DNA of 64,000 nucleotides, taken from Vicinamibacteria bacterium (GTDB taxonomy: Bacteria > Acidobacteriota > Vicinamibacteria > Marinacidobacterales > Marinacidobacteraceae). Positions within the stretch are counted from its first letter, which is position 1. Each line of letters opens with the position of its first letter. Shown here one piece after another: positions 1 through 16,542 of this stretch. A program made the position numbers and the translations under genes. The stretch spans positions 692,680 through 756,679 of the forward strand of contig OY729431.1 of assembly GCA_963422395.1 (NCBI GenBank), given 5' to 3'. The notes under the pieces were generated by a model. It did no database searches, was not told the origin of the DNA, and was given only the letters and a program-made list of their open reading frames with translations.

Positions 1-903
1 CTTCCACAGAAAATTCGCGTAGGCTTCAAGAGTGCCTGTATTCTGGAGTGTCACAGATTCCACGGGAAGGCGGAAATGAGCATGGAAGAACTTTTCCAGA
101 TATTTTTTAGAATTCTGGACTCCGTACTGCATCGTTACTATCTGTTCCAATTGTTTTCTATTCGTGACCAGAACGAAGCAGATATTTTCGACATCGAAGA
201 CATGCTTCAGATTTTCCAACAGCGAGAGCGCATAGGTCGGGCGGCACCGGTCCAGCTCATCGATGATGACGACGAGTGGTCTCGGCGAATCCTTGGGGAT
301 TCCTTCCGATGCACTTTCTTTCGCTTCGGCACTCATGGCATCGGCTAGTGCGGTCAACGCCTGCCGGAATTCATCCAGCGTCTTCCTCTGCTCTTGAGCG
401 TTTTCGAGGCGCTTTTGAAATTCCGAATCCAGGTCGACAGATGGATCTCTCTTGACCTTCGACAGGCCATCGACCAGCTTTTGGCCGGTCTCCTCGGACA
501 GGATTCCTCCGGTCACAATTCGAAGTCCGAGACCTGCGAGAGATGGCAGGAGGTGTTTTCCCAGGCTCGTGACCTTCCTGAGGAAGACTTTCCTTTCTTC
601 GCCGTTAGGAGCCCGATCGAAGATCTGGCTCGCAATATCGAAGAGCGGGTCTTCCCCGTTGTCCGCGGAAAACGCATCGAAATAGACGACCGCCGAGCCT
701 CGCTTCCGAAGCAGGCCGGCCCATTGTCTGGCGAATACAGTTTTCCCCGACCCCCACTCGCCATCCAGAGCGATCACTGACGGCCCTTCAAGGGATTCGA
801 CGACGCGCGCGACGGATTCCCCGAACCTCTGGTAACCGAAGATGTCGGTTCCCTCGAACCCATCACGATCCCCGATCTCTGGGGGTTTCGGTGTCAATCG
901 CAT
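1..903 (-). CDS. KAP-family P-loop NTPase, 5' portion only (gene continues beyond window start)
   Basis: Manual minus-strand translation from ATG at 903 gives MRLTPKPPEIGDRDGF...GPSVIALDGEWGSGKTVFARQWAGLL. The G-x-WGSGKT Walker A is typical of KAP NTPases, and VVIIDELDRCRP is Walker-B-like. The ORF track omits it because there is no stop inside the window. It starts 14 bp after the stop of the HEPN-like gene on the same strand. Bases 1-400 are much AT-richer than the rest of the window. Confidence 0.6.
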   Translation of the reverse strand, partial: MRLTPKPPEIGDRDGFEGTDIFGYQRFGESVARVVESLEGPSVIALDGEWGSGKTVFARQWAGLLRKRGSAVVYFDAFSADNGEDPLFDIASQIFDRAPNGEERKVFLRKVTSLGKHLLPSLAGLGLRIVTGGILSEETGQKLVDGLSKVKRDPSVDLDSEFQKRLENAQEQRKTLDEFRQALTALADAMSAEAKESASEGIPKDSPRPLVVIIDELDRCRPTYALSLLENLKHVFDVENICFVLVTNRKQLEQIVTMQYGVQNSKKYLEKFFHAHFRLPVESVTLQNTGTLEAYANFLWK

Positions 904-916
904 GGCTTTTTCTCCT

Positions 917-1444
917 TCAGTTCGTTCTCGAAGTGGGCCTGTGCGGGTTGATTTTTGCGGTCACGCCCATGAGAGCGTGCATTTTCCGGGTGAAACGGCG
1001 TGCATCTTCGAAGTAGCTGCGAACACTGTGGACGGTGACGCGCGCCGGGCGGCCGTGCGCCAGCGCGTGCCGGTCGGTCACGATGCTGTCGATGCTGGCC
1101 GCGATCTGCCCTTCGGACAGCGTCTCGAGTTCGTCGGCGGCTCGTTGATCGAACCAGCCTACGAGACGGATCATCTCTTTCGTGCGCGGGCTGCGGAAAT
1201 ACTGTAACTGGTGGTCCACATATTTCAGGACACCGGGGGCGGACCGTGTCTTCGCGTACGCCAGCATCGTTTCTCTGCAGGATGTCTCGAGATAGGCGGA
1301 TGTCCAGATCGTCATGAGCTGCGCCAGCCAGGAAAGCTGTTCGATGGAAAGAGGAGGGCTTTTCGATGTCTCCTTCGCCGAATCCAGGGCGCCCTCGATC
1401 ATCTGCTCGAGCCGCTGACTGTCTTCCATCATGACACTTTTCAT
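917..1444 (-). CDS. HEPN-like putative RNase, partner of the adjacent DUF262 gene (MAE_28990/MAE_18760-family-like)
   Basis: 175 aa, MKSVMMEDSQRLEQMIEG.... Contains an R-x4-H motif (IVTDRHALAHGR) typical of HEPN nucleases. Its ATG at 1442-1444 overlaps the DUF262 stop at 1441-1443, forming ATGA. The 216-aa track ORF has an implausible Arg/Pro-rich N-extension. Confidence 0.45.
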   Translation of the reverse strand: MKSVMMEDSQRLEQMIEGALDSAKETSKSPPLSIEQLSWLAQLMTIWTSAYLETSCRETMLAYAKTRSAPGVLKYVDHQLQYFRSPRTKEMIRLVGWFDQRAADELETLSEGQIAASIDSIVTDRHALAHGRPARVTVHSVRSYFEDARRFTRKMHALMGVTAKINPHRPTSRTN

Positions 1445-2529
1445 AGCACGGATCGGTAAGCATCTACCGCGTGCTGGATTCGAGCTCGGACGCGGCTCTC
1501 GTCCGTCGTTCCCTCGGTATGCAGACGCTCGGTTCGCAGGATTTCGAGAAGATGGAGATGTGCACACTCTAGACCGGCACCGTCCGTGATCGGCCCGTTG
1601 TCGAGACGCTTTGCGATGCCCACGAATACTGCATCCAGCACCGCGACATTCAGTGCCTTGTCGGGCCGCAGCGCTTTCGGTCCGAGCATCTCGTCAACGG
1701 CCCGCGCGGCTCCAGAAAACCTCTCCAAGAATTCTCTGATTTTCGTCTCTTCCGGTTTTCGGTGCTTCTCCATGAATCTGTCGAGAAATCTCTTCATCGG
1801 CCGTCGATAGGACTCGAGCGAGTAGTAGAGTGCTAGGAACCGAAGGATGATCTCCTCTTCCTTTCTTCTCTTGTTCCTGGGTCCGTAGAGGTTCCGCCAA
1901 TGGCCGTCGCCGGCGAGCTCCGAGAGAAGACGACGGAGCGGCCCCTGGTACACACAGTCCCGGATTTCCTGAGGCGTGAGAGGGGTTCCCGCGGTATTCA
2001 GGCGCTCGAAGACGATGCGCATGGAACTCCGGTCTCCGCTCGGTTCGTCCTGCTGGAATATCGTCGCGTGTACAACGGCGTCGTCGAGATGGCGGCGATC
2101 CGGCCCTTCGAGCGTCTCATATGTCTTGTCCTGTAAATCCGAGGATACTCCGACGAGCGAGAACTCTCGATCCTCGAGGAGTCCCAAGTGGAACGCCTGC
2201 AGGGTACGGAGTCGCTGCTGGCCATCGACGACGATGAGTTTGTTGTTCTCCGGATCCCTGAAGAGAAAGATTTCCGGAACCGGAATGCCGAGGATCAGGG
2301 ATTCGATGAAGCGCGACGACTGTGCTCTCGACCAGACGAATCCTCGCTGGAATTCCGGGATGACGATGTCCTCACGATTCAACCGGCTCACGATCCCGTC
2401 CACCGGCATGTCTGCACCGTAGCTGGTCACTGCGTAGCGAATCGGTTCTCCCACGGGATCGTCTTCGATGGACGAACTGTCGATCACCCCGAGTTCCTTT
2501 TCGTTTTCCTGCATTTCGATTCTCCTCAT
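1441..2529 (-). CDS. DUF262 (ParB-like/GmrSD N-terminal nuclease domain) protein
   Basis: 362 aa with the DUF262 signature block IPEFQRGFVW...FLFRDPENNKLIVVDGQQRLRTL. Start may be the internal Met (MQENEKEL, 2514) instead of 2529. Confidence 0.7.
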   Translation of the reverse strand: MRRIEMQENEKELGVIDSSSIEDDPVGEPIRYAVTSYGADMPVDGIVSRLNREDIVIPEFQRGFVWSRAQSSRFIESLILGIPVPEIFLFRDPENNKLIVVDGQQRLRTLQAFHLGLLEDREFSLVGVSSDLQDKTYETLEGPDRRHLDDAVVHATIFQQDEPSGDRSSMRIVFERLNTAGTPLTPQEIRDCVYQGPLRRLLSELAGDGHWRNLYGPRNKRRKEEEIILRFLALYYSLESYRRPMKRFLDRFMEKHRKPEETKIREFLERFSGAARAVDEMLGPKALRPDKALNVAVLDAVFVGIAKRLDNGPITDGAGLECAHLHLLEILRTERLHTEGTTDESRVRARIQHAVDAYRSVL

Positions 2530-2619
2530 GTTCTCGATGTGGGCTCTGTGGACCAGGGTCTCGAATTCTGAAGCCTTTTCGGGATCTTCGATCGATTTTT
2601 CCGCATTCCGGGAGCGCGG

Positions 2620-4530
2620 CTAATCGCTGTGTTTCTCTGGTCGGAGACCCATATCGGCGAGGAATCGAGACGGCTTTTTCGGCCGCCCGTAATAGGACCG
2701 GGCTCGGGTGAGGGTGAGCGTCTCGCTGGCGCGGGTCATCCCCACGAAACAGACGCGGCGCTCTTCTTCGATCCGAGGATCGGCTTCGCCGTTCGCTTTC
2801 GCGAAGTATGAGGGCAGCTGGTCCTCGGCGAGCCCCAGCAGATAGACATGCTCGAAGGTCTTCCCCTTCGCCTGGTGGATGGTGAGACACTGCACCTCCT
2901 CCCGCTTCGGCTCCGGCACGATGGGGCGCAGGTCGAGTTCGTGGAGGAACTGTTCGAGCCTCATCGAGTCTCCGCCCTGCCGGTGGATCTTCGCCGCGAT
3001 CTGACGCCAGACATCGCTTTCCTCATTCGCTTCGGTTCGTTCCGCCGGGTCCGTCGCGCGCGCTATATCGGAAGCCATGATTTCAAGCGCCTGACGGCTG
3101 AATCTCCGGTGATCCGGGCACAGCACGAGATGTTCCCGTGCGGCGGCGATCAGCGCCTTCGCGGGAGCAGCGTTGGACTCTTCCGCGGCTTTCGCCACGA
3201 ATGCGGCGAGCAGTGCACCGTTTTCGACATCCGCCCGCGATTCGGCGGATGCCGGCGAAACCTCCACTCCCCCGAGTTCGGAGAACGCCTTGACGAGGAG
3301 CCGCAGCTGCGCCCCGTCGCCCGGCGTGTTCGCCAGTCGAAGTGCGGCGAGCAGGAATCGGATGCCCGGAGACACGAACTCGTCTCTGGGTCTCCGGCGC
3401 CAGGCGGGGACGCCGGCCGTCCGCAACGCTTCGTACGCGGCTTCCACGAGCCTGCCGTTGCGCGCCAGAACGGCGATCTCGCCCGACGCGATCTGTCGAT
3501 CACGAAGATCCCGGCTCACCCACGACACTTCCTCGGCTTCGGTGGGAAAGCATCGAAGCCGGACGGATTCGGTCTCTGAGCGGTGACCGGCGGCGACGAT
3601 CGGAGGTTTCTCGGCCGTCTCGTTCGGACCCGCCTCCATGAGCCGATTCGCCCGCTCGACGACGGCCGGCGGGCAGCGAAAGCTCTCCGGCAGGTGGAGC
3701 ACGGCCATCCGGTAGTCGGTCTGGAGATCAGCGATCCGCTCCGGGCTCGCGCCGTTCCACTGGAAGATCATCTGGTCGTCGTCCGCGACGATGAACAGTT
3801 CGCTGCTGCCGGGCGGCCAGAGCGTTCGGAGCAGCCGATCCTGAATCGCGTTCGTATCCTGATACTCGTCCACGAGGACATGCGGATAGGCAATCGGAAA
3901 GTCCGCAGCGATCCGCGGCTCGCTATCGATCAGGCGAAAGCAGCACCAGAGCAGCGATCCATAGTCCATGCAGTTCTTCTGTATGAGCCGGGCGACATAC
4001 TCGTCGAGCAGTTCTCGCTTCCATCCGCTCGCTGCGCCCGGACCCGGAGCGAACGCGGACCGGGCGGCTGGGTCTGCGCGGAACAGGGCGTCCAGGTTGC
4101 GTGCGATTCGTTCGGCGGGCGGCGGCTGGCTTCCCCACGGGGCGCTGGGCCCGAGGGCGTCGGCCAGCACCACCGCGCGATCCGCATTCAGCGTCAGGAT
4201 GCGAAAGTCTGGGCGCAACCCGAGGTGGCTCCCGTGCTGCCGTAGTACACCGGCACAAAGCGAATGAAAAGTAGCAATCCGAACCCGATCCGAATCCCGA
4301 CCCAGCCGAATCGCCACCCGCTGTTTCATCTCGCTAGCGGCGAAGTTCGTGAAAGTCATCCCGAGCACGCGAAACCGTCTCTTCGGGGTGGCCTGGATGA
4401 TGCGAACGGCCCGTTCGGCGAGGACTTCCGTCTTGCCGGCTCCGGGCCCGGCGAGAACCAGGAGCGGCCCTCCCTCCCACGCGACGGCCCGACTTTGTGC
4501 CTCGCTGAGGACGACTTCGGAAGTGCTCAT
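2620..4530 (-). CDS. gajB: UvrD/Rep-family SF1 helicase, Gabija GajB-like
   Basis: Real start is MSTSEVVLSEAQSRAVAWEGGPLLVLAGPGAGKTEVLAERA. This carries Walker A of UvrD helicases, and TFHSLC is a motif-III-like element. The upstream 112 aa of the 748-aa track ORF are low-complexity. ATG at 4528-4530 overlaps the stop of the upstream OLD-family gene (ATGA). Confidence 0.7.
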   Translation of the reverse strand: MSTSEVVLSEAQSRAVAWEGGPLLVLAGPGAGKTEVLAERAVRIIQATPKRRFRVLGMTFTNFAASEMKQRVAIRLGRDSDRVRIATFHSLCAGVLRQHGSHLGLRPDFRILTLNADRAVVLADALGPSAPWGSQPPPAERIARNLDALFRADPAARSAFAPGPGAASGWKRELLDEYVARLIQKNCMDYGSLLWCCFRLIDSEPRIAADFPIAYPHVLVDEYQDTNAIQDRLLRTLWPPGSSELFIVADDDQMIFQWNGASPERIADLQTDYRMAVLHLPESFRCPPAVVERANRLMEAGPNETAEKPPIVAAGHRSETESVRLRCFPTEAEEVSWVSRDLRDRQIASGEIAVLARNGRLVEAAYEALRTAGVPAWRRRPRDEFVSPGIRFLLAALRLANTPGDGAQLRLLVKAFSELGGVEVSPASAESRADVENGALLAAFVAKAAEESNAAPAKALIAAAREHLVLCPDHRRFSRQALEIMASDIARATDPAERTEANEESDVWRQIAAKIHRQGGDSMRLEQFLHELDLRPIVPEPKREEVQCLTIHQAKGKTFEHVYLLGLAEDQLPSYFAKANGEADPRIEEERRVCFVGMTRASETLTLTRARSYYGRPKKPSRFLADMGLRPEKHSD

Positions 4531-6248
4531 GCCGCTGCCAGGGAGACCGTCTTCTCGAGGATGCGTTTCAATGCTTCGGGAACGGTTGCGGGTTCCTCGA
4601 GCATTCTTTTCGTAGCTCGCGTCGCAGTGGTGACCTTGTTGAAGTCTTTCTTGTTGTAGAGATCGTCGAAACCGTTCTCCTTGAGGAATTCCTCGATGTT
4701 CGGATATGGGCAGAGGTATCTGTCCTCTTCCGCCGCGCCTTCCAGATTCTCCATGGCGGCCCTTTCGTATTTGTTCCGCCCCTTGTCGCCATCGTAAACG
4801 AGATACCAGGGGATGCCGAACTGGTTGGCGATGCGGATCAGCGAAGCCAGATTGATATCGCTGCATTGCATATGGGCGATGCCGTGCCGGTCGAGGTCGA
4901 TCCCGAGTGCTTCGGCGACTCCGGAGAACAGTACTGCCTCGGTTTCCCCCTCGTACACCAGCCAGCAGCGGGCGAAGAGAAGGTCTCCGCGGCCGCGGCG
5001 GATCTTGCGCTGGAAGGTCTGACGATTCTTCTCGTCCAGGGATCCCAGCTCGGCGCGGTAGGTGCGTACGGCGCTGTCCCGATAGACGAGTCGCCGTACC
5101 GATTCGGGGTCGAGTCCGCAGAGCAAATCGCCGCTGTGCGTCGAAAGGATCTTCTGTCCGGGGAAGCGCTGCACGGCGTCCAGAAGCAGCCGAACCGCCG
5201 CCGGATGGAGGTGGGCCTCCGGTTCTTCCAGGATCGTGATCGGGACGACTGCATCGCCTCCCTCGCCGAGTCGACGCCGCAGGTACGCGTCGAAGAGGAG
5301 CAGTACCGCAAGGCTCTGCGCGCCCTCTCCCTGTCGGTCGAGAGGGATCTTCGCTCCCTGCCGGGAGGCCATGTTCACCCGCGCCTGCGACAGCAGCATC
5401 GACGCCCGCGCCGGAAGGGCATCCACCGTGACCGGGTCGCCGGCCCCGAACACGATCACTTCCTGGGCGCGTTTCAGGTGGTCCCGCACCTCGCTCAGCG
5501 GCGGGTGCGCTTCGATCAGTCTCTGATTCAGCTCTCCGAGCTCCTTCTCGAAGTCCTCGCGGTCCGCCTGGGAAAGATCTTTGGCAGCCAGGAATTCGCG
5601 CCAGAACGGGCCGCGCGACGCAAAGTGTTTCCCGGCGTCTCGAAGCGCCGATAGAAAGTGCACCGGCGCGGTCCGGCGAAGGGCGGCCATGTGCACTGCC
5701 GCGGCTGGCTTCATGGGGTTTTCCGCATCATCGAGGAACACGCCTTCCGTGATGAACTCCGTTCGATCTGCGTCGTAGGCCGAAGTCACCTGCAGAGTCG
5801 TTTCCCGCCTGCCGTCCTCCCGTAGCACGAGGACATCGGCGAGCTCCTCCCGAAGCTCGACGGGCAGGGTGTCCGGTGCGGTCTCGCCGAGCCGCAACTC
5901 GATCTCGATGGGATTCGCCTTCTCCGCCGACGCTGCCTCATCCACCAGGTGGTAGTCGTATTCCTCGAACACGCGGCTGCTCGGACCTCGCAACCGGTCG
6001 AGACATAGTTCGATCGCTTTCAGGACGGCCGTCTTGCCGGAGTTGTTCTCGCCGATCAGGACGGTCGTCTCCCCCAGGTCCAGTGTCAACTCTTTGATAC
6101 ACCGAAAGTTCCGGATTCGCACGCTCGTGAGTCGAAAGCCCGGTCCGGCGGTTTCTGGAGTGCGGCCCTCTCTTCGAGAAGCGTTCTGCTCCGTTGCCGA
6201 GTACGCAGCGGAGCCCCCGCGGTCGGCGGGTTCGTCCAGGGTTTCCAT
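4527..6248 (-). CDS. gajA: OLD-family ATP-dependent endonuclease (ABC ATPase plus C-terminal Toprim), Gabija GajA-like / class 2 OLD
   Basis: From METLDEP...RLTSVRIRNFRCIKELTLDLGETTVLIGENNSGKTAVLKAIELCL (Walker A). ILEEPEAHLHPAAVRLL is Walker B/D-loop. C-terminal Toprim: LVYEGETEAVLF ... WYLVYDGDKGRN. The 967-aa track ORF has a spurious ~390-aa Arg/Pro/Gly N-extension. Start 20 bp downstream of the helicase stop at 6269. Confidence 0.7.
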   Translation of the reverse strand: METLDEPADRGGSAAYSATEQNASRREGRTPETAGPGFRLTSVRIRNFRCIKELTLDLGETTVLIGENNSGKTAVLKAIELCLDRLRGPSSRVFEEYDYHLVDEAASAEKANPIEIELRLGETAPDTLPVELREELADVLVLREDGRRETTLQVTSAYDADRTEFITEGVFLDDAENPMKPAAAVHMAALRRTAPVHFLSALRDAGKHFASRGPFWREFLAAKDLSQADREDFEKELGELNQRLIEAHPPLSEVRDHLKRAQEVIVFGAGDPVTVDALPARASMLLSQARVNMASRQGAKIPLDRQGEGAQSLAVLLLFDAYLRRRLGEGGDAVVPITILEEPEAHLHPAAVRLLLDAVQRFPGQKILSTHSGDLLCGLDPESVRRLVYRDSAVRTYRAELGSLDEKNRQTFQRKIRRGRGDLLFARCWLVYEGETEAVLFSGVAEALGIDLDRHGIAHMQCSDINLASLIRIANQFGIPWYLVYDGDKGRNKYERAAMENLEGAAEEDRYLCPYPNIEEFLKENGFDDLYNKKDFNKVTTATRATKRMLEEPATVPEALKRILEKTVSLAAA

Positions 6249-6268
6249 GGTGTGATGCTCCTCGGGTC

Positions 6269-9200
6269 TCACGGGTCGGGTTCCGCGGCTTCCCGGAGGG
6301 CGCCGGCGGAGAGGGAGAACGCCTCGGAGGAATGGTGCGAGGTGAGCAGGCGAAAGGGGTTCTGGATCCGCTTCAGCTCGGGTCTCGGACGGCCGCAGTC
6401 GAACACCACATACAGCCAGTAGGCCTCGCCGAAGTGGCACGCCTGCTTCCACTCGTTCGGCTCGATCGAGACGCCGCCGCGCCCCGCCCGGCCCTTGACC
6501 TCGATGCGCCGCTGCTCTCCGTCGGGGCGGATCGAGAGGAGATCGAACCCGGGCCAGTCGGCGAGCCCGGCAGCCCGCGCCTTCTCGGGCTTCGAAACGT
6601 CTTGCAAGCGGCCGTGGTGTGCCCGCTCCCACTCCGAGGCGATGCGAACTGCCATCGCCTCCACGGTCTCGTCGTAGCCTTCGAGTTCGTCGGAATCGGG
6701 GGCGGGGATGACGAGTGCGTGGGCCAGCAGCAGGACCTCGCCGGGATGGATCCGGTCCGGCGCCTCCCGAAGATTTTGGAGTTCGCTCGTCCGCCGGGAA
6801 GCGAGCGCCGCCTGCTCTTCGCGCACCTCCCGCATCGCCTCCTCGTCGGGCGCTGCCCGATCGGAAGACTGGTTGGAAAGCCGATCGGGAAGCCGATCGC
6901 GCAGGCGTTTGCGCTGTTCGGCGAGCTCCGCAGCGCGCAGATCGAATCCGGCGGTCAGCTGCCGGCGCCGCTCCTCGCTGCTCCGGCGGGCTCTTGCGCG
7001 ATGTTCCCCGACCAGCCGTTCGGCGATCTCCTGTGCCTGGGCGGCGGCTTCGGCGCGCCTTCCGAGAGAGCGGCTCGCCAGCGGGATCGCCCCCGGCACC
7101 GCATTCGGCGCACCGTGGAGCAACAGCATCCGTTCGACCGGTTCTTCGATGAGCATTCCGTCTTCTTCCTGGCGGAGTCCGATCAGCCGGCGTTCGATGA
7201 TCCGGCGCGCCGGAGAGGGCACACGAAGACTGCCGTGGGGGAGGAGTGCCGGTGGAGCCGCTGCCGGCGGCGGAACCTCCGCTTCGACGCCAACGAGGCC
7301 CAGGTGGAAGAAGTACGGCCCGTCGGCGCGGGGGTCGGCGAAGATCGCGCCGCGCTGGGCATCCCGGGAGAAGAGGTTTCGGACGGCTTCGGAAAGCGCG
7401 TCGAAGACCGGCTCTCCGGGATGGAGCCATACCCCGGGTTTTCCCGGTGCGATCCGTCTCGCCGAGAGCAGCTCCCGATCTTCCGGGGCGAGGGTGTCGA
7501 GTGCCGGGAGGAGGGGGTCGAGCGCCCCCGCTCGCCCGGGCAGCAGCGTGAAGAACCCGTCGAGGTCCCCGCTGATGGTCAAACCCAGGAGCGGTGCGCT
7601 CCTTTCGACGAACCGGAGCACATACGCAGGGAGAAGGCGCAGGGATTCCTCGCGATCCCGTTCGCGGTTCAGCCGGGTGAGACGGGCGGCGACTTCTCCT
7701 GGCTTTTCGGGTCCATCGCCGTAGCGCCGGGTCTCCTCGTCTCGGATTTTGCGCACCCGTTCGCTGCGGAGCGCATCCTTCAGTTCTGCCAGATCGGCCC
7801 GCTCGGCGTCGGTCTTCTCTTCACCGCCTTCCCAAAGTGTCGAGCGCAGGTATTTCTTCAGCGAGCGGCCCTCGAACAGCCGGCCGATGACATCGAAGAC
7901 CTTGTCCGATTCGAGCTCTTCCCGGATGGCGTCGAGTTTTTCCAGCAGCACGGCCAGCACCCGCCCCTCGCGGGTGTCTTTCGAGATGAGGTTGACGATG
8001 CGGACCTCGTGCTTTTGTCCGTAGCGGTGGATGCGTCCCATTCGCTGCTCGAGTCGGGCCGGGTTCCAGGGGATGTCGTAGTTCACCATCAGCCGACAGA
8101 ACTGGAGGTTGATCCCTTCGCCGGCGGCGTCGGTCGCGATCAGGAACCGGGCTCCGGCGGGATCGCGGAACCGCTCGACCTGTTCCTCGCGTTCGGGCCA
8201 GTCCATGCCGCCGTGGATCTCGGCCACCTGCCCCGAGTAACCGAGCCCTTCGAGCCGCCGGATCAGGGAATCCACGGTGTCTCGGTGCTCGCTGAAGATC
8301 AGCCACTTCTCCCGGGGCTCGACTTCGGCGCCGCCCTCGAGAACTTCGCGTAGCCGTTGGAACTTGGACTCCTGCCCGGACTCGTGGAGACGCCGCGCCC
8401 GGTCGCGCAGGCCTTCGAGCACGCCGATTTCGCGCTGGACTTCCTCTTCGGTCACCACTGCGAGCGCGCCGAGCATCTCGTCTTCCCAGGTTTCGATCTC
8501 CTCCCGATCTCGATTCGTGGGGCTTCCCGCGTCGTCATCGGCAGCCCGGATCTCGAAGAGATCGCCCTTGGCTGCCTTTCGGTCCAGTAGCAGTGTCTCG
8601 GGCTCGATCCCATCGCTCCGGATGTCCTGGACGACCTGCCGGAGTTTTTCGATGCGGCGTTCGAACGACCGCAACAGCGCCCAGGTGGAGCTGGCGAGTC
8701 GGCGCTGGAAGACGGTCAGGGCCAGCTCGACCGCCGGCCGGTTCTTCAGTCGGTTCGTCAGCGCCCGGCCGTAGAACTCGTGGAGATATTCGGTCGTCCT
8801 CTCGTAGAGGTCGCGCTCGCCGTCCGGGCCTTCGCTCAGCTGGTAGCTGAAGGTGTTGCAGCGGCGCGGCAGGAAGAGGGGTGCGCCGTCGAAGCCCACC
8901 AGCTCTTCCTTCGTCCGGCGGAGAAAGTGGCGGCGGCGCACGGCCGGCGACAGCCTCGTCACTGCCGCACCCGTCGAGAACGATTGCGGATCGAGCAGCC
9001 GCCAGAGAAAGTGGTAGGGCCGCTCCCGACCCATGTGCGGGGTGGCGGTGAGCAGCAGGAGGTGCCGGGCCGACCAGCCGAGCCCCGAGAACGGGCCGCT
9101 CGGCGCGGCGCCCCCGGAAAGCGCCTCGGCGAGCTGGTAGCGCTTCGTCTTGTCCACCCGGTCCCCTTCTCCGCCGACGCTCAGCTTGTGCGCCTCGTCG

Positions 9201-9919
9201 AAGACCACCAGGTCGTAGGGAGCGACCTCGGGGTCGCCGAGCTCCTGAAAAGTTCGCTCCTGCCGCAGGGTGTCCAGCGACACGATCTGCTGGTCTTCGA
9301 GAAACGGATTCCCGGATTCCGTCCGCCTGCGCCCAAGGATTCCGAACTGCAAGTGGAAGAGGGTCCGCAGCTCGCGCTCCCAGTTCCCGACGAGCCCGGC
9401 CGGGGGCACGATGAGCACCCTTCGGATGCGACGGCGCGAGAGAAGCTCACGCACCAGGAGGCCGGTCATGATCGTTTTGCCGGCTCCGGCGTCGTCAGCG
9501 AGCAGGAACCGCAGCGGGTCCTGCGCCAGCATCCTTTCGTATACCGCGATCCGCTGGTGCGGCAATGGATCGATCCGTGCCGTCTCGATGGCGAAGGCGG
9601 GGTTGAACTCGTGGCCGTGAGCGAGGCAAAGCGCTTCGGTGAATGCGGAAACGCCGCGCGGATCCCCGGCGAAGTCCAGCGGGGGAGGGCCGGGTTCCAC
9701 CGGAGGCGCGGGGCTGGAGGCGGCGACCGCGGCTTCGAGCTCGGCGAGCCGGCGAAGCGAGCCCGGTTGCGGTGCTGCTTTTCCTGCCTCCCAGCGGTGG
9801 ATGGTGATCAGGGTTACCCCGAGTTCCTCGGCGAGCCGGCCCTGGCTGAAACCGAGAGCTCGCCGGACCTCGTGCACCCTCCCGCCGAAGTCGTCACCGT
9901 CGGAGCTCGCGGAAGGCAT
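6269..9919 (-). CDS. Multidomain SNF2/SF2 helicase with N-terminal XRE-type HTH and C-terminal DUF3883-like (restriction-endonuclease-fold) domain
   Basis: 1216 aa. N-terminal HTH: [29 protein letters not shown]. SNF2 helicase motifs: [21 protein letters not shown], a HELICc block ([13 protein letters not shown]...[23 protein letters not shown]). C-terminal ...[47 protein letters not shown] matches DUF3883. Preceded by an AT-rich promoter region. Confidence 0.7.
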   Translation of the reverse strand: [1216 protein letters not shown]

Positions 9920-10209
9920 GGCAGCGGTCAGTATAGCACAGGTAACATGAGGCTTATAAAGATATTTATCATTTGATAAAAATCATGAAAAAGAAGCAAC
10001 GGATGCCGTGTCGCGGCGGCGGTGGAAGGGGCTAGAGCGTCTGCCGTCCCGCCGCGTCCACAGGCTGGTCCGGAGCGGCTCGCCGTGATCCACCTCCTGT
10101 TGGGTCGACATCGAACCGCACGGCTCGCCGTGACGCACCGCCCCCGCCGAGAATACGCCTTCCACTGCGGTGCGGCGCTTCCTCGCGGATGTGCTACGTT
10201 GTGCGTCGT
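9920..10209. promoter_or_regulatory. Divergent intergenic region with sharply AT-rich core (approx 9940-10010); likely promoters for the minus-strand defence operon and plus-strand toxin-antitoxin genes
   Basis: Sequence ggtaacatgaggcttataaagatatttatcatttgataaaaatcatgaaaaagaagc is less than 30% GC in a ~70% GC context. It is flanked by the start of the 6-gene minus-strand cluster and the start of the Phd/YefM gene. Confidence 0.35.
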
Positions 10210-10503
10210 ATGTCGCGAAGTGCTGCCCGGACCCGGCGGGTCGGCGTCCGGGAGTTGCGGCAGAACCTGAGCGTCTATCTGCGCCGGATCCATGACGGCG
10301 AACGGTTCGAAGTGACGGACCGGGGTGTCCCGGTGGCCCTGCTGACCCCACTGGGCGAGAACCTCTCTCCCCTCGAACGACTGATCGCCGAGGGAAGGGT
10401 GAAGCGGCCGGTCGGGAAGCTGTCAGATCTCCCGCCGCCCGCCGGAGAGCCGACCACTACGGGGAGCGGCGCCCTCCTGACCGGCCGCGAAGACCGCTTC
10501 TGA
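10210..10503 (+). CDS. Type II antitoxin, Phd/YefM family
   Basis: MSRSAARTRRVGVRELRQNLSVYLRRIHDGERFEVTDRGVPVALLTP is the classic Phd/YefM N-terminal fold. Immediately upstream of a PIN-domain gene. Confidence 0.7.
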   Translation: MSRSAARTRRVGVRELRQNLSVYLRRIHDGERFEVTDRGVPVALLTPLGENLSPLERLIAEGRVKRPVGKLSDLPPPAGEPTTTGSGALLTGREDRF

Positions 10504-10537
10504 ACCGGCTGCCGACCGCTTCTTCGCGCGTTCTCTC

Positions 10538-10927
10538 ATGGTTTATGTGGATTCGTCGGCGCTCGTGAAGCTCCTGGTCTCCGAGCCGGAGTCGCGGGCG
10601 CTTCGGGAGTACTTGATCGGCCGCGAGGAACTCGTGTCGAGCGCCCTGGCGGAAGTCGAGCTGCTTCGCGCCCTGAGCCGGATCGACGGTTCGGAGGAGA
10701 TCCGCCGCCGCGCTCGCCTCCTGCTGGACGGTCTGGCGCTCCTTCCGCTCGACTCGACCGTTCTGAAGGAAGCGGCGAGCTTCCCGGTGCCCGGCCTGCG
10801 TACGCTCGACGCGCTCCACCTCGCGGCGGCGCTTTCGCTAGCCGATCTCGATGCCTTCGTCACCTACGACCGGCGGCTCGCCGAGGCTGCCGCCGCCGCG
10901 GGCCTGCCCGTGGCGTCCCCGGGGTGA
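10538..10927 (+). CDS. vapC: PIN-domain toxin VapC
   Basis: MVYVDSSALVKLLVSEPES...ALAEVELLRAL...TLDALHLAAAL...FVTYDRRL shows the PIN acidic residues. 35 bp after the antitoxin. Confidence 0.75.
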   Translation: MVYVDSSALVKLLVSEPESRALREYLIGREELVSSALAEVELLRALSRIDGSEEIRRRARLLLDGLALLPLDSTVLKEAASFPVPGLRTLDALHLAAALSLADLDAFVTYDRRLAEAAAAAGLPVASPG

Positions 10928-11042
10928 CCGACCTCCCGGTGCTTCTGGTGCGGATCCCCGAGAGCGGCTCCGACTCCGAGGATGACGGTGGGTTCGTTCT
11001 TCCAAATGGACCATGGTCTCAGACCATATTAAGGTGGAGGTC

Positions 11043-11390
11043 ATGCAGGAAATTCGTATCTCGAAGTTCAAGGCGACCTGTCTCGAGGTCCTCGACCGGG
11101 TAGCGACGAGCGGCCGCCCGGTGTTGGTGACCCGGTTCGGCAGGCCGATCGCCCGGATCGTTCCGCCGCCGCCTGTTCCGCGGGCCGGATGGTTCGGCGC
11201 CATGAAGGGCACGGGCAGGATGAACGACGACCTGATCGCCCCGGCTGCCGACCCGGCGGAATGGGAAGGGCGGCAGACTCGCTCGACTTTCTGCGAACCG
11301 CGGCGGCGGGCATCGAGAGAGGCCGAAGCCGAAGCGGACGGAACCCGGGAGAGAGGCGAGAGACGCTCCCGCCGGCGGGTGCCGGAATAG
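11043..11390 (+). CDS. Second Phd/YefM-family antitoxin, apparently orphan (no toxin gene follows)
   Basis: MQEIRISKFKATCLEVLDRVATSGRPVLVTRFGRPIARIVPPPP...DDLIAPAADPAEWEGRQ. The C-terminal Arg/Glu-rich tail to 11390 may be read-through. True stop uncertain. Confidence 0.5.
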   Translation: MQEIRISKFKATCLEVLDRVATSGRPVLVTRFGRPIARIVPPPPVPRAGWFGAMKGTGRMNDDLIAPAADPAEWEGRQTRSTFCEPRRRASREAEAEADGTRERGERRSRRRVPE

Positions 11391-11445: not shown

Positions 11446-13971
11446 GTGTCCCGGTTCTCGAAAGCCCTGCTCGAAAAATCCGATCCCCGAAGCTCTGGTC
11501 TCGGAGGCTCTCTTCGGGTCTCCGGCTGGCTGTTCGGTCGGTGCCTCGGTCGGTTGTCCGGCCGGTCGGCTGGCTGGTCGGCTGCCGCGGCGGTCGCGGG
11601 CACCGCGGCGAGCTTCGGGGCGGGTGCCGCCTTCGCGCAGGCCGCCGAGGCAGAACCAACTATAGAAAGGGTGGAGGACTCCTCGGTTTCCGCTTCGAGG
11701 CGGCGAAATTCCGAGGGGGATGCAGTTTCCGCCGACCGGGGTTCGGGGCGGCTCGCCGAGGGACAGCCGGCGCCCCTGAGCCCGGCCCTGACCGGGCGGA
11801 TCCTCGGCCCCCCCGCTCCGGCGGCGAACGAGGCGATCCGCCGGGCGGGCGACGGGGGCGTCACCCTGCGCGCCTTCCGGCTCGCCGAGCCGCTCACCGT
11901 GGATGGAGCCCTCGACGACCCGGTGTACGAGCAGGTTCCCGGGGCGGAAGGCTTCTTGCAGCAGGAGCCCGACGAAGGGGCGCCCGTTTCGGAGTCCACC
12001 CGCGTCTGGGTGTTCTACGACACGGGCAGCCTCTACATCGCCGCCCATCTGGAAGAGAACCATCCGGCCGAGTTCATGACCAACGAGATGCGCCGCGACC
12101 AGCGGAACATCGGCTGGGGCGACAGCTTCTCCGTAGTCCTCGACCCGTTCTACGACCGCCGGAACGGTTTCCTGTTCCACACGAACGCGCTGGGCGCCCT
12201 CTACGACGCCCAGATAACCGACGAGCGGAACACCAACAGCGACTGGAACACCGTGTGGTGGGTGAAGACCGAGCGCCTACAGGACGCCTGGACCGTAGAG
12301 ATGCGGATCCCCTTCCGTTCGCTGCGCTACGCCGCGGGCGGACCCCAGCTCTGGGGGATCAACTTCCGCCGGCTCATCAAGCACGCGAACGAACGGGCGT
12401 TCCTCACTCCCACTCCCCAGGCGTATAGCCGGGACGGACTGATCCGGCTCTCCAACGCGGCGACCCTCGTCGGCCTCGAAGCGCCGGCAGGATCGAGGCG
12501 GATGGAGCTGAAGCCGTATCTGATCGGGTCTCAGAGCCACGTTCCCCTGAACGACGTTTGGAACGAATGGTCCGGCGATCTCGGCGCCGACTTCAAGTTC
12601 GGAGTCACCGACGGACTGACAGCCGATGTCACCTGGAACACCGACTTCGCGCAGGTGGAGGACGACGAGACCCAGATCAACCTGAGCCGTTTCAGCCTGT
12701 TCTACCCGGAAAAGCGCGAGTTCTTCCTCGAAGGGCAGGGAGTCTTCGACTTCGGCGGCCGCGAAACCCGATTCTTCGGAGGGGCGACGGACGTCCCCAT
12801 CCCGTTCTTCAGCCGCTCCATCGGAATCGAGGACGGCGACGCGGTGCCGATTCTCGGCGGCGCGCGGCTCCACGGCCGCGCCGGCGCCTACCAACTGGGA
12901 CTCCTGAACATCCAGACCGGCGGCGTGTCCGCACTCGATGCGGCGAGCACGAACTTCAGCGCCTTCCGGGTGAAGCGGGATCTCTTCTCCCGGTCCAACA
13001 TCGGGGTCATCGTCACCCACCGGAACCTGAGCGCCGGCGGCGCCGGAGCGAACTCGCTCTACGGAGTGGACGGGAACTTCAACCCGACCGAGAACATCCG
13101 GATCAACACCTTCTACATGGGGACCCGCGAGCCCGGCGTCGAAAGCGGGCACCGGGCCGCCAGCTACTTCGGCCAATTCCGCTACGACACCGACCTGATC
13201 GATCTCACCGCCGAGCGTCTCTATCTGGGCGAGGACTTCGACCCGGGCATGGGCTTCGTGCGCCGCCGGGACTTCACGAAGAACGGGGGCAGCCTCCAGT
13301 TCTCCCCGCGCCCCCGGAGCATCAAAGCGGTCCGGCAGTTCGAGTTCGAGGCAGAGGCCAGCAACTACGACCGCCCCGACGGCGAGCTGGAGACGCGCGA
13401 GTACCAGTTCGGCGCCCGAGCCGTCTTCGAGAGCAGCGACCGCCTCATGTTCGACCACACCGTGACCGAAGAGCGGCTCCTCGATGGTTTCGACCTCTCG
13501 GACACGGTCGGGGTTCCCGCCGGGAACTATCGGTTCTCCCGCACCGGGGTACGGGTGCGGATGGGATCCCACCGCGCGCTCTCGGGAATGTTTCGCTACG
13601 AGTTCGGAGACTTCTTCGGCGGCTCCCGCCGGGAAGTGAGTTACTGGGGGCGGGCCGAGGTGAACCAGCGCTTCTCGCTCGAGCCCAACATCAGTTTCAA
13701 CTGGATCGAGGTGCCGGAGGGCGAAGTGGAGGCGCAGGTGAGCCGCCTGCGCGCGACCTGGACCGTCTCGCCCCGCAGCTTCGCGGGCGTGCTCGTCCAG
13801 TACAATTCGGCGGCTCGATCGATTTCGGCGAACGTCCGCTTTCGCTGGGAGTACTCCCCGGGCAGCGATCTGTTCGTGGTCTTCAGCACGAACCGCAATG
13901 GGGACGACGGACTCTCCGGGCTCAGCGACCGGACGCTCGTGGTGAAGTTCACTCGGTTGTTCCGGTTCTGA
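11446..13971 (+). CDS. DUF5916 / CBM9-like domain outer-membrane protein, paralog 1 of 3
   Basis: N-terminal CBM9-like block LRAFRLAEPLTVDGALDDPVYEQVPG...VWVFYDTGSLYIAAHLEE...DSFSVVLDPFYDRRNGFLFHTNALGALYDAQ. Middle DVTWNTDFAQVEDDETQINLSRFSLFYPEKREFFLEG. C-terminal VVKFTRLFRF is the beta-barrel OMP C-terminal Phe. GTG start at 11446 is doubtful. A TTG near 11551 gives a cleaner signal peptide (SGRSAGWSAAAAVAGTAASFGAGAAFAQA). Confidence 0.65.
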   Translation: MSRFSKALLEKSDPRSSGLGGSLRVSGWLFGRCLGRLSGRSAGWSAAAAVAGTAASFGAGAAFAQAAEAEPTIERVEDSSVSASRRRNSEGDAVSADRGSGRLAEGQPAPLSPALTGRILGPPAPAANEAIRRAGDGGVTLRAFRLAEPLTVDGALDDPVYEQVPGAEGFLQQEPDEGAPVSESTRVWVFYDTGSLYIAAHLEENHPAEFMTNEMRRDQRNIGWGDSFSVVLDPFYDRRNGFLFHTNALGALYDAQITDERNTNSDWNTVWWVKTERLQDAWTVEMRIPFRSLRYAAGGPQLWGINFRRLIKHANERAFLTPTPQAYSRDGLIRLSNAATLVGLEAPAGSRRMELKPYLIGSQSHVPLNDVWNEWSGDLGADFKFGVTDGLTADVTWNTDFAQVEDDETQINLSRFSLFYPEKREFFLEGQGVFDFGGRETRFFGGATDVPIPFFSRSIGIEDGDAVPILGGARLHGRAGAYQLGLLNIQTGGVSALDAASTNFSAFRVKRDLFSRSNIGVIVTHRNLSAGGAGANSLYGVDGNFNPTENIRINTFYMGTREPGVESGHRAASYFGQFRYDTDLIDLTAERLYLGEDFDPGMGFVRRRDFTKNGGSLQFSPRPRSIKAVRQFEFEAEASNYDRPDGELETREYQFGARAVFESSDRLMFDHTVTEERLLDGFDLSDTVGVPAGNYRFSRTGVRVRMGSHRALSGMFRYEFGDFFGGSRREVSYWGRAEVNQRFSLEPNISFNWIEVPEGEVEAQVSRLRATWTVSPRSFAGVLVQYNSAARSISANVRFRWEYSPGSDLFVVFSTNRNGDDGLSGLSDRTLVVKFTRLFRF

Positions 13972-14069
13972 CACGAACGCGGGAGCCCGGCGCCAACTGA
14001 CGCCAAAGCTAGACTGAGCGAGCGTCTTCGACCGCCCAATCCGGGAACCGGGTTCCCAGGTGCCGCCTC

Positions 14070-16511: not shown

Positions 16512-16542
16512 CGCGCGGGCCGTCAGGCCACCACTCCCCTTC

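What the first reader, a model, noticed from the sequence alone, without database searches (positions are those of the whole stretch)
1..9919. Six-gene co-directional defence island: HTH-SNF2-DUF3883 helicase, Gabija-like OLD/UvrD pair, DUF262/HEPN pair, KAP NTPase
All six genes are on the minus strand with gaps of 20 bp or less, or 4-bp ATGA overlaps. An AT-rich promoter region sits at 9920-10010. Each product belongs to a family known from anti-phage systems: OLD ATPase-Toprim plus UvrD helicase (Gabija/class 2 OLD), DUF262 (GmrSD-like), HEPN (R-x4-H), KAP NTPase, and an SNF2 helicase with an endonuclease-fold tail. Two Phd/YefM antitoxin genes (one with VapC) lie just beyond. Packing three or four modules into one apparent transcription unit is unusual. 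It could indicate a cooperative or co-regulated composite system.
Basis: partly seen in the sequence, partly recalled or inferred. Interest (0 to 1): 0.75.

Follow-up and report, generated by a model that had tools for sequence, protein, structure and literature searches.

The report
Hma defence locus with embedded systems
The six genes are the front part of a known restriction-like anti-phage system (Hma) with several other known defence systems nested between its own genes; this nesting is already published, so the locus is a heavily loaded but ordinary example.

Summary
The six minus-strand genes exist and every family assignment holds: HTH-SNF2-NOV_C helicase, GajA, GajB, DUF262, RiboL-PSP HEPN and a KAP NTPase. 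There are two corrections. One junction, GajB to DUF262, is 105 nt rather than 20 nt or less. The KAP gene is cut by the window start.

The helicase is HmaA, the first gene of the Hma system (also called Type-1 BREX-related). Its partners HmaB (DUF1156 methylase) and HmaC (DUF499 ATPase) lie past the left window edge. The evidence is indirect. The same 2,908,270-bp source contig encodes an HmaB, an NsnB and an NsnC. A sister contig, 94.5% identical over window 62-3660, continues KAP-NsnA-NsnB-NsnC-HmaB-HmaC.

The island is therefore the promoter-proximal 9.9 kb of a roughly 21-kb hma locus. About eight embedded genes sit between hmaA and hmaB: Gabija, a PD-T4-2-like pair, the KAP candidate PDC-S20, and Menshen.

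Embedding in Hma, co-oriented with it, is published (Payne 2021 and 2024, Liu 2024, NAR 2026). Relatives show the cassettes vary and swap order, so they are modules rather than one obligate machine.

Three things are mildly new: the load is unusually high, the HTH-HmaA-Gabija block is specific to one clade, and a conserved box sits in the promoter.

The parts
9920..10010 (-). AT-rich promoter region of hmaA. It holds the conserved box CAAATGATAA at 9975..9966, inside the imperfect palindrome TTATCAAATGATAA. An extended -10-like TGCTATACT lies at 9938..9930. There is no Shine-Dalgarno sequence before the ATG at 9919.
   Evidence: GC is 0.29-0.385. The 10-mer CAAAWGATAA sits 54-57 nt before the hmaA start in the window and in L005, L006, L087 and L088, and nowhere else in 1.23 Mb of fetched loci or in the window. 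The consensus promoter scan found nothing. Promoter and operator function is inferred.
6269..9919 (-). hmaA: XRE-type HTH (residues 10-61), Swi2/Snf2 helicase (Walker A GAGKT at 145, DEAH at 241, Helicase_C at 519-634) and a C-terminal NOV_C/DUF3883 PD-(D/E)xK nuclease (EVK at 1140).
   Evidence: Pfam. PADLOC HmaA at 1e-163 over residues 82-1189. A 100% identical protein, P0001, is on a 2,908,270-bp contig. Motifs.
4527..6248 (-). gajA: OLD-family ABC ATPase plus Toprim nuclease of Gabija.
   Evidence: Pfam DUF2813, AAA_15, AAA_21 and OLD-like_TOPRIM. PADLOC GajA at 1e-154. Walker A GENNSGKT, Toprim YEGETE and YDGD are present.
2620..4530 (-). gajB: UvrD-like SF1 helicase of Gabija, overlapping gajA by ATGA.
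   Evidence: Pfam UvrD-helicase at 187.6 bits plus UvrD_C. PADLOC GajB at 1e-186. GAGKT and DEYQD are present.
2515..2619 (-). 105-nt intergenic gap at the cassette junction between Gabija and the DUF262/HEPN pair.
   Evidence: No terminator-like or promoter-like consensus site was found in it. In relatives the variable cassettes sit at this position.
1441..2514 (-). ParB-like DUF262 NTPase, similar to PD-T4-2_A and NsnA, with the DGQQR motif at residue 97.
   Evidence: Pfam GmrSD_N at 96.5 bits. PADLOC NsnA at 2.5e-60 and PD-T4-2_A at 5.5e-50. Motif.
917..1444 (-). Small RiboL-PSP-type HEPN protein with RHALAH at residues 125-130, overlapping the DUF262 gene by ATGA. Putative RNase effector of the pair.
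   Evidence: Pfam PF18735 at 28.0 bits against a 28.4 cut-off. 59 of 60 relatives hit PF18735, and R125, H130 and G131 are conserved. No PADLOC hit.
1..903 (-). KAP-family P-loop NTPase, N-terminal 301 codons only, cut by the window start. It belongs to the PADLOC candidate family PDC-S20.
   Evidence: Pfam KAP_NTPase at 123 bits. PADLOC PDC-S20 at 1.8e-59. Walker A GEWGSGKT and Walker B VVIIDELDR are present. Full-length relatives are 454-464 aa and lie upstream of hmaB.

Best explanation
The six genes are the promoter-proximal part of one long hma locus (Hma, also called the Type-1 DUF499-centred BREX-related system). The locus runs hmaA, embedded cassettes, hmaB, hmaC.

The inferred full order is: hmaA, gajA, gajB, DUF262, HEPN, KAP, then outside the window nsnA, nsnB, nsnC, hmaB, hmaC. 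This is about 21 kb and 11 genes.

How the Hma core works, taken from the literature:
- HmaB, an N6-adenine methylase, marks host DNA.
- HmaC, a DUF499 AAA+ ATPase, senses or scans.
- HmaA translocates on DNA and nicks or cuts it with its C-terminal PD-(D/E)xK domain.

The embedded cassettes are self-contained second-line modules:
- Gabija is a GajA-GajB complex with nucleotide-gated DNA nicking.
- The PD-T4-2-like pair is a DUF262 NTPase sensor with a HEPN RNase effector.
- The KAP NTPase is the untested candidate PDC-S20.
- Menshen is NsnA, NsnB and NsnC.

The cassettes probably ride on the hmaA promoter. They give layered cover when a phage evades or inhibits the restriction-like core.

Shown here: the gene identities, the hmaA-cassettes-hmaB-hmaC architecture in relatives, and the modular swapping. 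Inferred: the exact left-flank order in the source genome, co-transcription, and all biochemical activities.
For: 1. Identity of gene A. PADLOC HmaA hits at 1e-163 along nearly the full length.

2. hmaB follows hmaA across the family. Among 80 metagenome loci with HmaA at 43-54% identity, all 60 with more than 2.7 kb downstream have HmaB (DUF1156) downstream on the same strand. HmaC usually follows. The hmaA-to-hmaB distance has a median of 1.1 kb and a maximum of 7.3 kb, and 41 of 60 are 300 bp or more.

3. The closest relatives share the layout. The four at 66-70% identity all read HTH-HmaA, GajA, GajB, variable cassette, KAP in some, DUF1156, DUF499.

4. The source contig carries the missing parts. 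The 2,908,270-bp contig that holds the window's proteins also encodes:
- a 1095-aa DUF1156 HmaB, P0241;
- NsnB and NsnC, which fall in the same 90%-identity clusters as those of L089.

5. A sister contig shows the continuation. L089 is 94.5% identical in DNA to window 62-3660. It continues KAP, NsnA, NsnB, NsnC, HmaB, HmaC. Its HmaB is 92% identical to P0241.

6. The cassettes behave as modules.
- The slot after GajB holds different content in different relatives: nothing before KAP (L005), a PIN gene (L087), DUF5343 plus Ymh (L088), or a four-gene methylase cassette (L006).
- L090 has DUF262-HEPN before GajA-GajB.
- GajA and GajB fall into two lineages. Identity is 67-69% within a lineage and 47-50% between them, although HmaA is 67-77% throughout.
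- GC falls from 0.68 in hmaA to 0.54-0.60 in DUF262, HEPN and KAP.

7. All catalytic motifs are intact.

8. Literature.
- Hma embedding: PMC8565338, bioRxiv 10.1101/2024.01.29.577857, PMC11232893, PMC12839542.
- HmaA alone protects against T4 through its nickase domain: PMC11232893.
- PD-T4-2 combines DUF262 with a PF18735 HEPN: PMC10952713, PMC9519451.
- RiboL-PSP HEPN occurs in an operon with ParB: PMC3710099.
Against: - The left flank of the source contig could not be read. The positions of hmaB, nsnB and nsnC on the 2.9-Mb contig rest on the contig length recorded for each protein and on a sister contig.
- hmaC and nsnA of the source genome were not recovered.
- KAP is only 77% identical in protein between the window and L089, so the two loci are not identical.
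- Gabija lies directly after hmaA in all five members of the closest clade. This could mean it is more than a passenger.
- There are no transcript data. The consensus promoter and terminator scan was uninformative.
Confidence: 0.82

Rival explanations
1. The locus is a cooperative composite system. HmaA, Gabija, DUF262/HEPN and KAP would be physically or functionally interdependent parts of one machine, expressed as one operon.
For: - The genes are co-oriented, with two ATGA overlaps and gaps of 13 and 20 nt.
- Gabija lies directly after hmaA in 5 of 5 loci of the 66-70% clade.
- KAP recurs just upstream of hmaB in L001, L005 and L087, and upstream of the Menshen-hmaB block in L089.
- A single conserved promoter box precedes hmaA.
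Against: - Each module exists and works on its own elsewhere. Gabija, PD-T4-2 and Menshen have been validated in isolation, and HmaA alone defends (PMC11232893, PMC9519451, PMC10952713).
- Cassettes differ among the closest relatives and change order in L090.
- HmaA relatives at 59-61% identity (2 of 2) and at 43-54% identity (0 of 60) lack Gabija.
- The two Gabija lineages are discordant with the HmaA relationships.
- GC content is heterogeneous.
- One junction is 105 nt long.
Confidence: 0.1
2. This is an ordinary defence island. Unrelated systems would have accumulated side by side at a hotspot, with no link to an Hma core. HmaA would be an orphan single-gene helicase-nuclease defence.
For: - HmaA alone is sufficient against T4 (PMC11232893).
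- 15-20% of hmaA genes lack hmaB or hmaC nearby in that survey.
- hmaB and hmaC are not visible in the window, since tblastn found none in 64 kb.
Against: - An HmaB 92% identical to that of the sister contig is on the same source contig.
- The sister contig runs collinearly from GajB through to HmaB and HmaC.
- Every relative with enough downstream sequence has hmaB after hmaA.
Confidence: 0.06
3. KAP is a dedicated accessory subunit of this Hma subtype, a fourth core gene placed before hmaB, rather than an independent embedded defence gene.
For: - KAP lies immediately upstream of hmaB in L001, which has no Gabija and whose HmaA is about 49% identical.
- The same is true in L005 and L087.
- It is always co-oriented with the hma genes.
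Against: - KAP is absent from L006, L088, L092, L093 and from the hmaA-hmaB interval of all 60 metagenome loci.
- In L089 a Menshen system separates KAP from hmaB.
- The PDC-S20 family was defined from genes embedded in BREX, DISARM or type I RM systems, according to the methods of bioRxiv 10.1101/2024.01.29.577857.
- It has the lowest GC of the locus, 0.54.
- L001 was found by searching with KAP itself, so it is a biased sample.
Confidence: 0.08

Closest known systems
Hma system (HmaA, HmaB, HmaC), also called the Type-1 DUF499-centred BREX-related system, with embedded defence genes
   Same: - The helicase has the same Swi2/Snf2 plus NOV_C/DUF3883 nuclease architecture, with a full-length PADLOC HmaA match.
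- The DUF1156 methylase and DUF499 ATPase lie downstream in all relatives.
- Co-oriented defence cassettes sit between hmaA and hmaB, as described by Payne 2021 and 2024, Liu 2024 and the NAR 2026 BREX survey.
   Different: - HmaA carries an extra N-terminal XRE-type HTH. This is common among its database relatives. It lies outside the region matched by the PADLOC HmaA profile, and the domain descriptions I read in the three papers do not list it.
- About eight genes in four modules lie between hmaA and hmaB. That exceeds the limit of three genes per interval used in the published Hma survey. It also exceeds the 7.3-kb maximum in my 60-locus sample.
- hmaB and hmaC are not inside the window.
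Gabija (GajA and GajB; a class 2 OLD nuclease with a UvrD helicase)
   Same: - Two overlapping genes.
- GajA has the ABC ATPase and Toprim domains with intact Walker A, Toprim Glu and DxD motifs.
- GajB is a UvrD-type helicase with Walker A and DEYQD.
- PADLOC E-values are 1e-154 and 1e-186.
   Different: - It is embedded inside another system rather than free-standing.
- In this HmaA clade it always occupies the first slot after hmaA, in two distinct lineages.
PD-T4-2 (a DUF262 protein with a PF18735 HEPN protein; Vassallo 2022)
   Same: - A two-gene pair of a ParB-like DUF262 NTPase with DGQQR, followed by a small RiboL-PSP-type HEPN with Rx4H.
- The two genes overlap.
- D hits PD-T4-2_A at 5.5e-50 over almost its whole length.
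   Different: - E is not recognised by the PADLOC PD-T4-2_B model.
- D scores slightly better on the Menshen NsnA model than on PD-T4-2_A.
- The sequences are distant from the E. coli prototype.
Menshen (NsnA, NsnB, NsnC)
   Same: - D resembles NsnA (ParB-DUF262 plus a C-terminal DNA-binding region) at 2.5e-60.
- A true NsnABC set sits further down the sister locus L089, and NsnB and NsnC are on the source contig.
   Different: The gene after D is a HEPN protein, not an NsnB ABC ATPase. So the D/E pair itself is not Menshen.
KAP NTPase defence genes (PADLOC candidate PDC-S20; QatA of Qat; PifA)
   Same: KAP P-loop domain with Walker A and Walker B. The best match is PDC-S20, at 1.8e-59.
   Different: - There are no QatBCD partners.
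- It is far weaker on the QatA and PifA models.
- The family has not been tested experimentally.
- The gene is truncated in the window.

Membership tests
Hma / Type-1 BR system | A Swi2/Snf2 helicase with a C-terminal NOV_C/DUF3883 PD-(D/E)xK nuclease (HmaA) | tested here: met
   Pfam SNF2-rel_dom, Helicase_C and NOV_C. PADLOC HmaA at 1e-163 over residues 82-1189. DEAH and EVK motifs are present.
Hma / Type-1 BR system | A DUF1156 N6-adenine methyltransferase (HmaB) in the same co-oriented locus | tested here: inconclusive
   It is not in the window. A 1095-aa DUF1156 protein, P0241, is recorded on a contig of the same length and sources as the window's proteins. It is 92% identical to the HmaB of sister contig L089, which is collinear with the window. 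Its position in the source genome could not be read.
Hma / Type-1 BR system | A DUF499 AAA+ ATPase (HmaC) in the same locus | not testable with these tools
   It was seen only in relatives: L005, L087, L088 and L089 (PADLOC HmaC at 1.5e-72). The source genome's left flank is unavailable.
Gabija | GajA: an OLD-family ABC ATPase fused to a Toprim nuclease | tested here: met
   Pfam AAA_15, AAA_21 and OLD-like_TOPRIM. PADLOC GajA at 1e-154. Motifs.
Gabija | GajB: a UvrD-like SF1 helicase encoded immediately downstream | tested here: met
   ATGA overlap at 4527-4530. Pfam UvrD-helicase and UvrD_C. PADLOC GajB at 1e-186.
PD-T4-2 | Component A: a DUF262 (ParB-like NTPase) protein without DUF1524 | tested here: met
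   Pfam hits GmrSD_N only. PADLOC PD-T4-2_A at 5.5e-50, aligning residues 51-353 to profile positions 54-361 of 363. DGQQR is present.
PD-T4-2 | Component B: an adjacent PF18735-type HEPN protein | tested here: inconclusive
   PF18735 scores 28.0 bits against a 28.4 cut-off. 59 of 60 relatives hit PF18735 and RNxIAHG is conserved. No PADLOC model, including PD-T4-2_B, matches even at E<=10.
Menshen (NsnABC), for genes D and E | NsnA followed by an NsnB ABC ATPase with DUF3696, then NsnC | tested here: not met
   D hits NsnA at 2.5e-60. The next genes are a HEPN protein and a KAP NTPase, with no NsnB or NsnC hits.
GmrSD / BrxU type IV restriction | DUF262 fused to a DUF1524 His-Me nuclease | tested here: not met
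   D has no DUF1524 hit. It gives only weak N-terminal hits to the HEC-05, HEC-06 and SspE models.
Qat (QatABCD) | A KAP ATPase QatA together with QatB, QatC and QatD (TatD) | tested here: not met
   QatA models hit only weakly: 5.9e-11 in PADLOC, and 48 bits in NCBIfam against a 600-bit cut-off. No QatBCD partners are adjacent in the window or in L005, L087 or L089.
PDC-S20 (PADLOC single-gene candidate) | A match to the PDC-S20 KAP NTPase profile | tested here: met
   1.8e-59 on the 301-aa fragment. 7.5e-68 for the full-length L089 homologue.
DISARM or BREX helicase (DrmD, BrxHII) | A full-length match above the curated cut-off, plus the partner genes | tested here: not met
   NCBIfam DrmD scores 324 bits against a 610-bit cut-off, on the helicase core only. 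No Drm, PglZ or BrxC genes were found.

The most novel reading that the evidence does not exclude
In this HTH-HmaA clade, Gabija would be a selected, fixed partner of the Hma core rather than a random passenger. It is captured at the same first slot in two separate lineages. The whole locus of about 11 genes would form one regulon, controlled by HmaA's own N-terminal XRE-type HTH acting on the conserved CAAAWGATAA box. That would make it a self-regulated, multi-layer defence operon in which the restriction helicase doubles as the repressor of its back-up systems.
Probability: 0.15. Interest if true: 0.55.

Novelty: new member of a known kind. Interest (0 to 1): 0.3.

Why it matters
The case shows that a reader given a truncated window can mistake an Hma system with embedded cargo for a new composite system.

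It gives a natural example in which four embedded modules, about eight genes, sit between hmaA and hmaB. This is more than the limit of three genes per interval used in the published Hma survey, so such loci may be reported as an 'orphan HmaA plus separate systems'.

The clade-specific HTH-HmaA-Gabija block and its conserved promoter box offer a tractable place to test two ideas. One is whether embedded systems are co-regulated with their host system. The other is whether they act as back-ups when the host system is inhibited.

If none of that holds, this is simply one more well-annotated defence locus.

Tried and rejected
- **Direct retrieval of the left flank failed.** Exact look-ups of E, GajB and P0001 found no indexed contig. 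The genome-contig scan with the KAP fragment returned only relatives at 35-40% identity, not the source genome.
- **The first HmaB search missed the source contig.** The L087 query did not list it among the top 120 hits. A second search with the L088 query did.
- **The consensus promoter and terminator scan was uninformative.** It found no promoter-like sites and fewer terminator-like sites than in shuffles.
- **PADLOC gave no hit for E**, even at E<=10.
- **NCBIfam added nothing above cut-off** for any of the six proteins.
- **Single-sequence AlphaFold2 of E was unusable**, with mean pLDDT 43. No fold search was run, and the HEPN call rests on sequence profiles.
- **No tRNA genes are in the window**, so there is no integration-site clue.
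- **Three readings were considered and rejected:** D/E as Menshen or GmrSD (partner genes or domains are absent), KAP as QatA (no QatBCD), and gene A as DISARM DrmD or BREX BrxHII (helicase-core similarity only).
Full report
**Observation**

Six minus-strand genes fill window 1-9919.

| Gene | Coordinates | Length |
|---|---|---|
| A | 9919..6269 | 1216 aa |
| B | 6248..4527 | 573 aa |
| C | 4530..2620 | 636 aa |
| D | 2514..1441 | 357 aa |
| E | 1444..917 | 175 aa |
| F | 903..<1 | first 301 codons only; cut by the window start |

The proteins from these starts for B, C, D and E, and A itself, are on record with exactly these sequences. All come from a single NCBI/ENA contig of 2,908,270 bp.

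| Junction | Spacing |
|---|---|
| A/B | 20 nt |
| B/C | ATGA overlap |
| C/D | 105 nt |
| D/E | ATGA overlap |
| E/F | 13 nt |

The AT-rich stretch upstream of A is real. GC is 0.29 over 9935-10000, against 0.68 for the window.

**Gene identities**

- **A** has an XRE-type HTH (residues 10-61), a Swi2/Snf2 helicase core and a C-terminal NOV_C (DUF3883) nuclease domain. It matches the PADLOC HmaA profile almost end to end, at 1e-163.
- **B** is GajA (1e-154). It has AAA_15/21 plus OLD-like Toprim domains.
- **C** is GajB (1e-186). It is a UvrD-type helicase.
- **D** is a DUF262/GmrSD_N protein. Its best matches are NsnA (2.5e-60) and PD-T4-2_A (5.5e-50).
- **E** scores 28.0 bits on HEPN_RiboL-PSP, against a cut-off of 28.4, and has no PADLOC hit.
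- **F** is a KAP NTPase. Its best match is the PADLOC candidate PDC-S20 (1.8e-59).

The HEPN call for E holds at the family level.
- A full HMMER search found 547 representatives, mostly stand-alone proteins of about 155 aa.
- 59 of 60 aligned members hit PF18735.
- R125, H130 and G131 are conserved in an RNxIAHG motif. The window protein reads RHALAHG.

All expected catalytic motifs are intact:
- Hma[10 protein letters not shown] and EVK.
- GajA: Walker A, the Toprim Glu and DxD.
- GajB: GAGKT and DEYQD.
- DUF262: DGQQR.
- KAP: Walker A and Walker B.

**What the helicase is part of**

HmaA is the first gene of the Hma system.
- Hma comprises the helicase HmaA, the DUF1156 methylase HmaB and the DUF499 ATPase HmaC (PMC8565338).
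- It has been re-described as the Type-1 DUF499-centred BREX-related system (PMC12839542).
- HmaA alone protects E. coli against T4 and needs its nickase domain to do so (PMC11232893).

I tested whether the hma architecture applies here.

In 80 metagenome loci encoding HmaA at 43-54% identity:
- All 60 with more than 2.7 kb of downstream sequence have HmaB downstream on the same strand, usually followed by HmaC.
- The hmaA-to-hmaB distance has a median of 1.1 kb and a maximum of 7.3 kb.
- 41 of 60 distances are 300 bp or more. This agrees with the published 62.7-66.5% of Hma loci that carry embedded genes.

The four closest relatives (66-70% identity) all begin HTH-HmaA, GajA, GajB. They then continue as follows:
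- L005: KAP, HmaB, HmaC.
- L006: a four-gene cassette, then HmaB.
- L087: a PIN gene, KAP, HmaB, HmaC.
- L088: DUF5343, a Ymh gene, HmaB, HmaC.

**The missing left flank**

The source genome could not be fetched. Three indirect lines agree.

1. A 1095-aa DUF1156 protein, P0241, is recorded on a contig of the same length and sources as the window's proteins.
2. The 14,363-bp contig L089 is 94.5% identical in DNA to window 62-3660.
   - It reads GajB (3' end), DUF262, HEPN, KAP (454 aa), NsnA, NsnB, NsnC, HmaB, HmaC. PADLOC E-values for these range from 1e-68 to 1e-117.
   - Its HmaB is 92% identical to P0241.
3. The 90%-identity clusters of L089's NsnB and NsnC each contain a member from the 2,908,270-bp contig.

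The most likely full locus is hmaA-gajA-gajB-DUF262-HEPN-KAP-nsnA-nsnB-nsnC-hmaB-hmaC. That is about 21 kb, with roughly 10 kb and eight genes between hmaA and hmaB. This exceeds anything in my 60-locus sample and the limit of three genes per interval used in the published survey (bioRxiv 10.1101/2024.01.29.577857).

**One machine or modules?**

The evidence favours modules.

- The slot after GajB differs in every close relative.
- In L090, the locus of E's closest representative (64% identity), the DUF262-HEPN pair precedes GajA-GajB, again upstream of a DUF1156 gene. Pairs stay together while their order changes.
- HmaA relatives at 59-61% identity carry small unrelated genes instead of Gabija. 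None of the 60 more distant loci has a GajA plus GajB pair in the interval.
- The Gabija genes fall into two lineages.
  - HmaA is 67-77% identical among the five close loci.
  - GajA and GajB are 67-69% identical within a lineage and 47-50% between lineages.
  - So the Gabija cassette has been exchanged or recaptured at the same slot.
- GC falls from 0.68 in hmaA to 0.63-0.65 in gajAB and 0.54-0.60 in DUF262, HEPN and KAP.
- Each module is independently known.
  - Gabija.
  - PD-T4-2, which combines DUF262 with a PF18735 HEPN (PMC10952713, PMC9519451). The operon of ParB with RiboL-PSP HEPN was noted in PMC3710099.
  - Menshen (PMC12065111).
  - PDC-S20, a guilt-by-embedding candidate.

**Mechanism (inferred)**

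The Hma core acts like a restriction-modification system. HmaB methylates host DNA, HmaC senses, and HmaA translocates and nicks or cuts.

The embedded cassettes are second-line modules:
- a nucleotide-gated DNA nuclease (Gabija);
- a DUF262 sensor with a HEPN RNase;
- a KAP NTPase of unknown output;
- Menshen.

They are probably transcribed from the hmaA promoter. Published proposals suggest they cover for the core when phages inhibit or evade it (bioRxiv 10.1101/2024.01.29.577857; PMC12839542). Co-transcription is plausible from the spacing and the absence of predicted terminators, but it is untested.

**Points that remain interesting**

1. Gabija sits directly after hmaA in 5 of 5 members of the closest clade, in two lineages.
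2. The 10-mer CAAAWGATAA lies 54-57 nt before the hmaA start in the window and in all four close relatives.
   - Those relatives sit in at least three different chromosomal contexts.
   - The 10-mer occurs nowhere else in 1.23 Mb of fetched loci or in the window.
   - An extended -10-like TGCTATACT follows it, and there is no Shine-Dalgarno sequence.
   - Because HmaA carries an N-terminal XRE-type HTH, autoregulation is a testable idea.

**Verdict**

The family calls are right. The claim of an 'unusual composite system' is not supported. This is a heavily loaded instance of the published phenomenon of defence systems embedded in Hma.

I rate it a new member of a known kind, with interest 0.3.

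Noticed in passing
window 9966-9975 (minus strand); L005, L006, L087 and L088 at 54-57 nt before the hmaA start: The 10-mer CAAAWGATAA is conserved upstream of hmaA in the window and all four closest relatives, which sit in at least three different chromosomal contexts. It is absent from the rest of 1.23 Mb of fetched loci and from the window. In the window it lies inside TTATCAAATGATAA and is followed by an extended -10-like TGCTATACT (9938..9930). It is a candidate operator for HmaA's N-terminal XRE-type HTH.
   Followed up: partly
window 9919-9935: There is no Shine-Dalgarno sequence before the hmaA ATG, and the -10-like hexamer ends only about 10 nt upstream. The hmaA message may be leaderless or nearly so.
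   Followed up: no
L005, L088, L006 and L087 compared with window 2620-6248: Gabija occurs in two lineages at the same slot after hmaA. GajA and GajB are 67-69% identical within a lineage and 47-50% between them, while HmaA is 67-77% identical throughout. This points to cassette replacement or repeated capture.
   Followed up: partly
L090:3442-12338: The closest representative of the HEPN protein lies in another hma-type locus. Its order is a NOV_C-only 467-aa fragment, DUF262, HEPN, GajA, GajB, a 61-aa ORF, then DUF1156. These are the same pairs as in the window, in swapped order, next to what looks like a truncated hmaA.
   Followed up: partly
L089:4420-7624, and P0273 and P0275 on the source contig: A complete Menshen system (NsnA, NsnB, NsnC) lies between KAP and hmaB in the sister contig. 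Near-identical NsnB and NsnC are on the source contig. The full locus therefore carries two different ParB/DUF262-based systems.
   Followed up: partly
window 10189-11390 (plus strand): A Phd/YefM-like antitoxin (10189-10503, 29.4 bits against a 29.8 cut-off) lies with a PIN/VapC toxin (10538-10927). A second Phd-like gene (11013-11390) has no toxin partner. They are divergent from hmaA and absent from the corresponding position in relatives.
   Followed up: partly
window 11446-19032 (plus strand): Three large tandem ORFs (11446-13971, 14070-16511, 16408-19032) each carry DUF5916, and two also carry CBM9-like domains. They look like a paralogous array unrelated to defence.
   Followed up: no
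L001:6906-9235: In Candidatus Multivorans thiocomprendens, hmaA matches only residues 79-146 and 479-1213 of the window protein, so it appears internally deleted. KAP, hmaB, a 452-aa gene and hmaC follow intact.
   Followed up: no
L006:18491-21692 and L002:16481-19655: The same three-gene cassette (374 aa, 331 aa and an N6_N4 methylase; 57-74% identical) is embedded before hmaB in L006. It also lies downstream of a KAP gene in L002. It may be a further mobile embedded module of unknown function.
   Followed up: no
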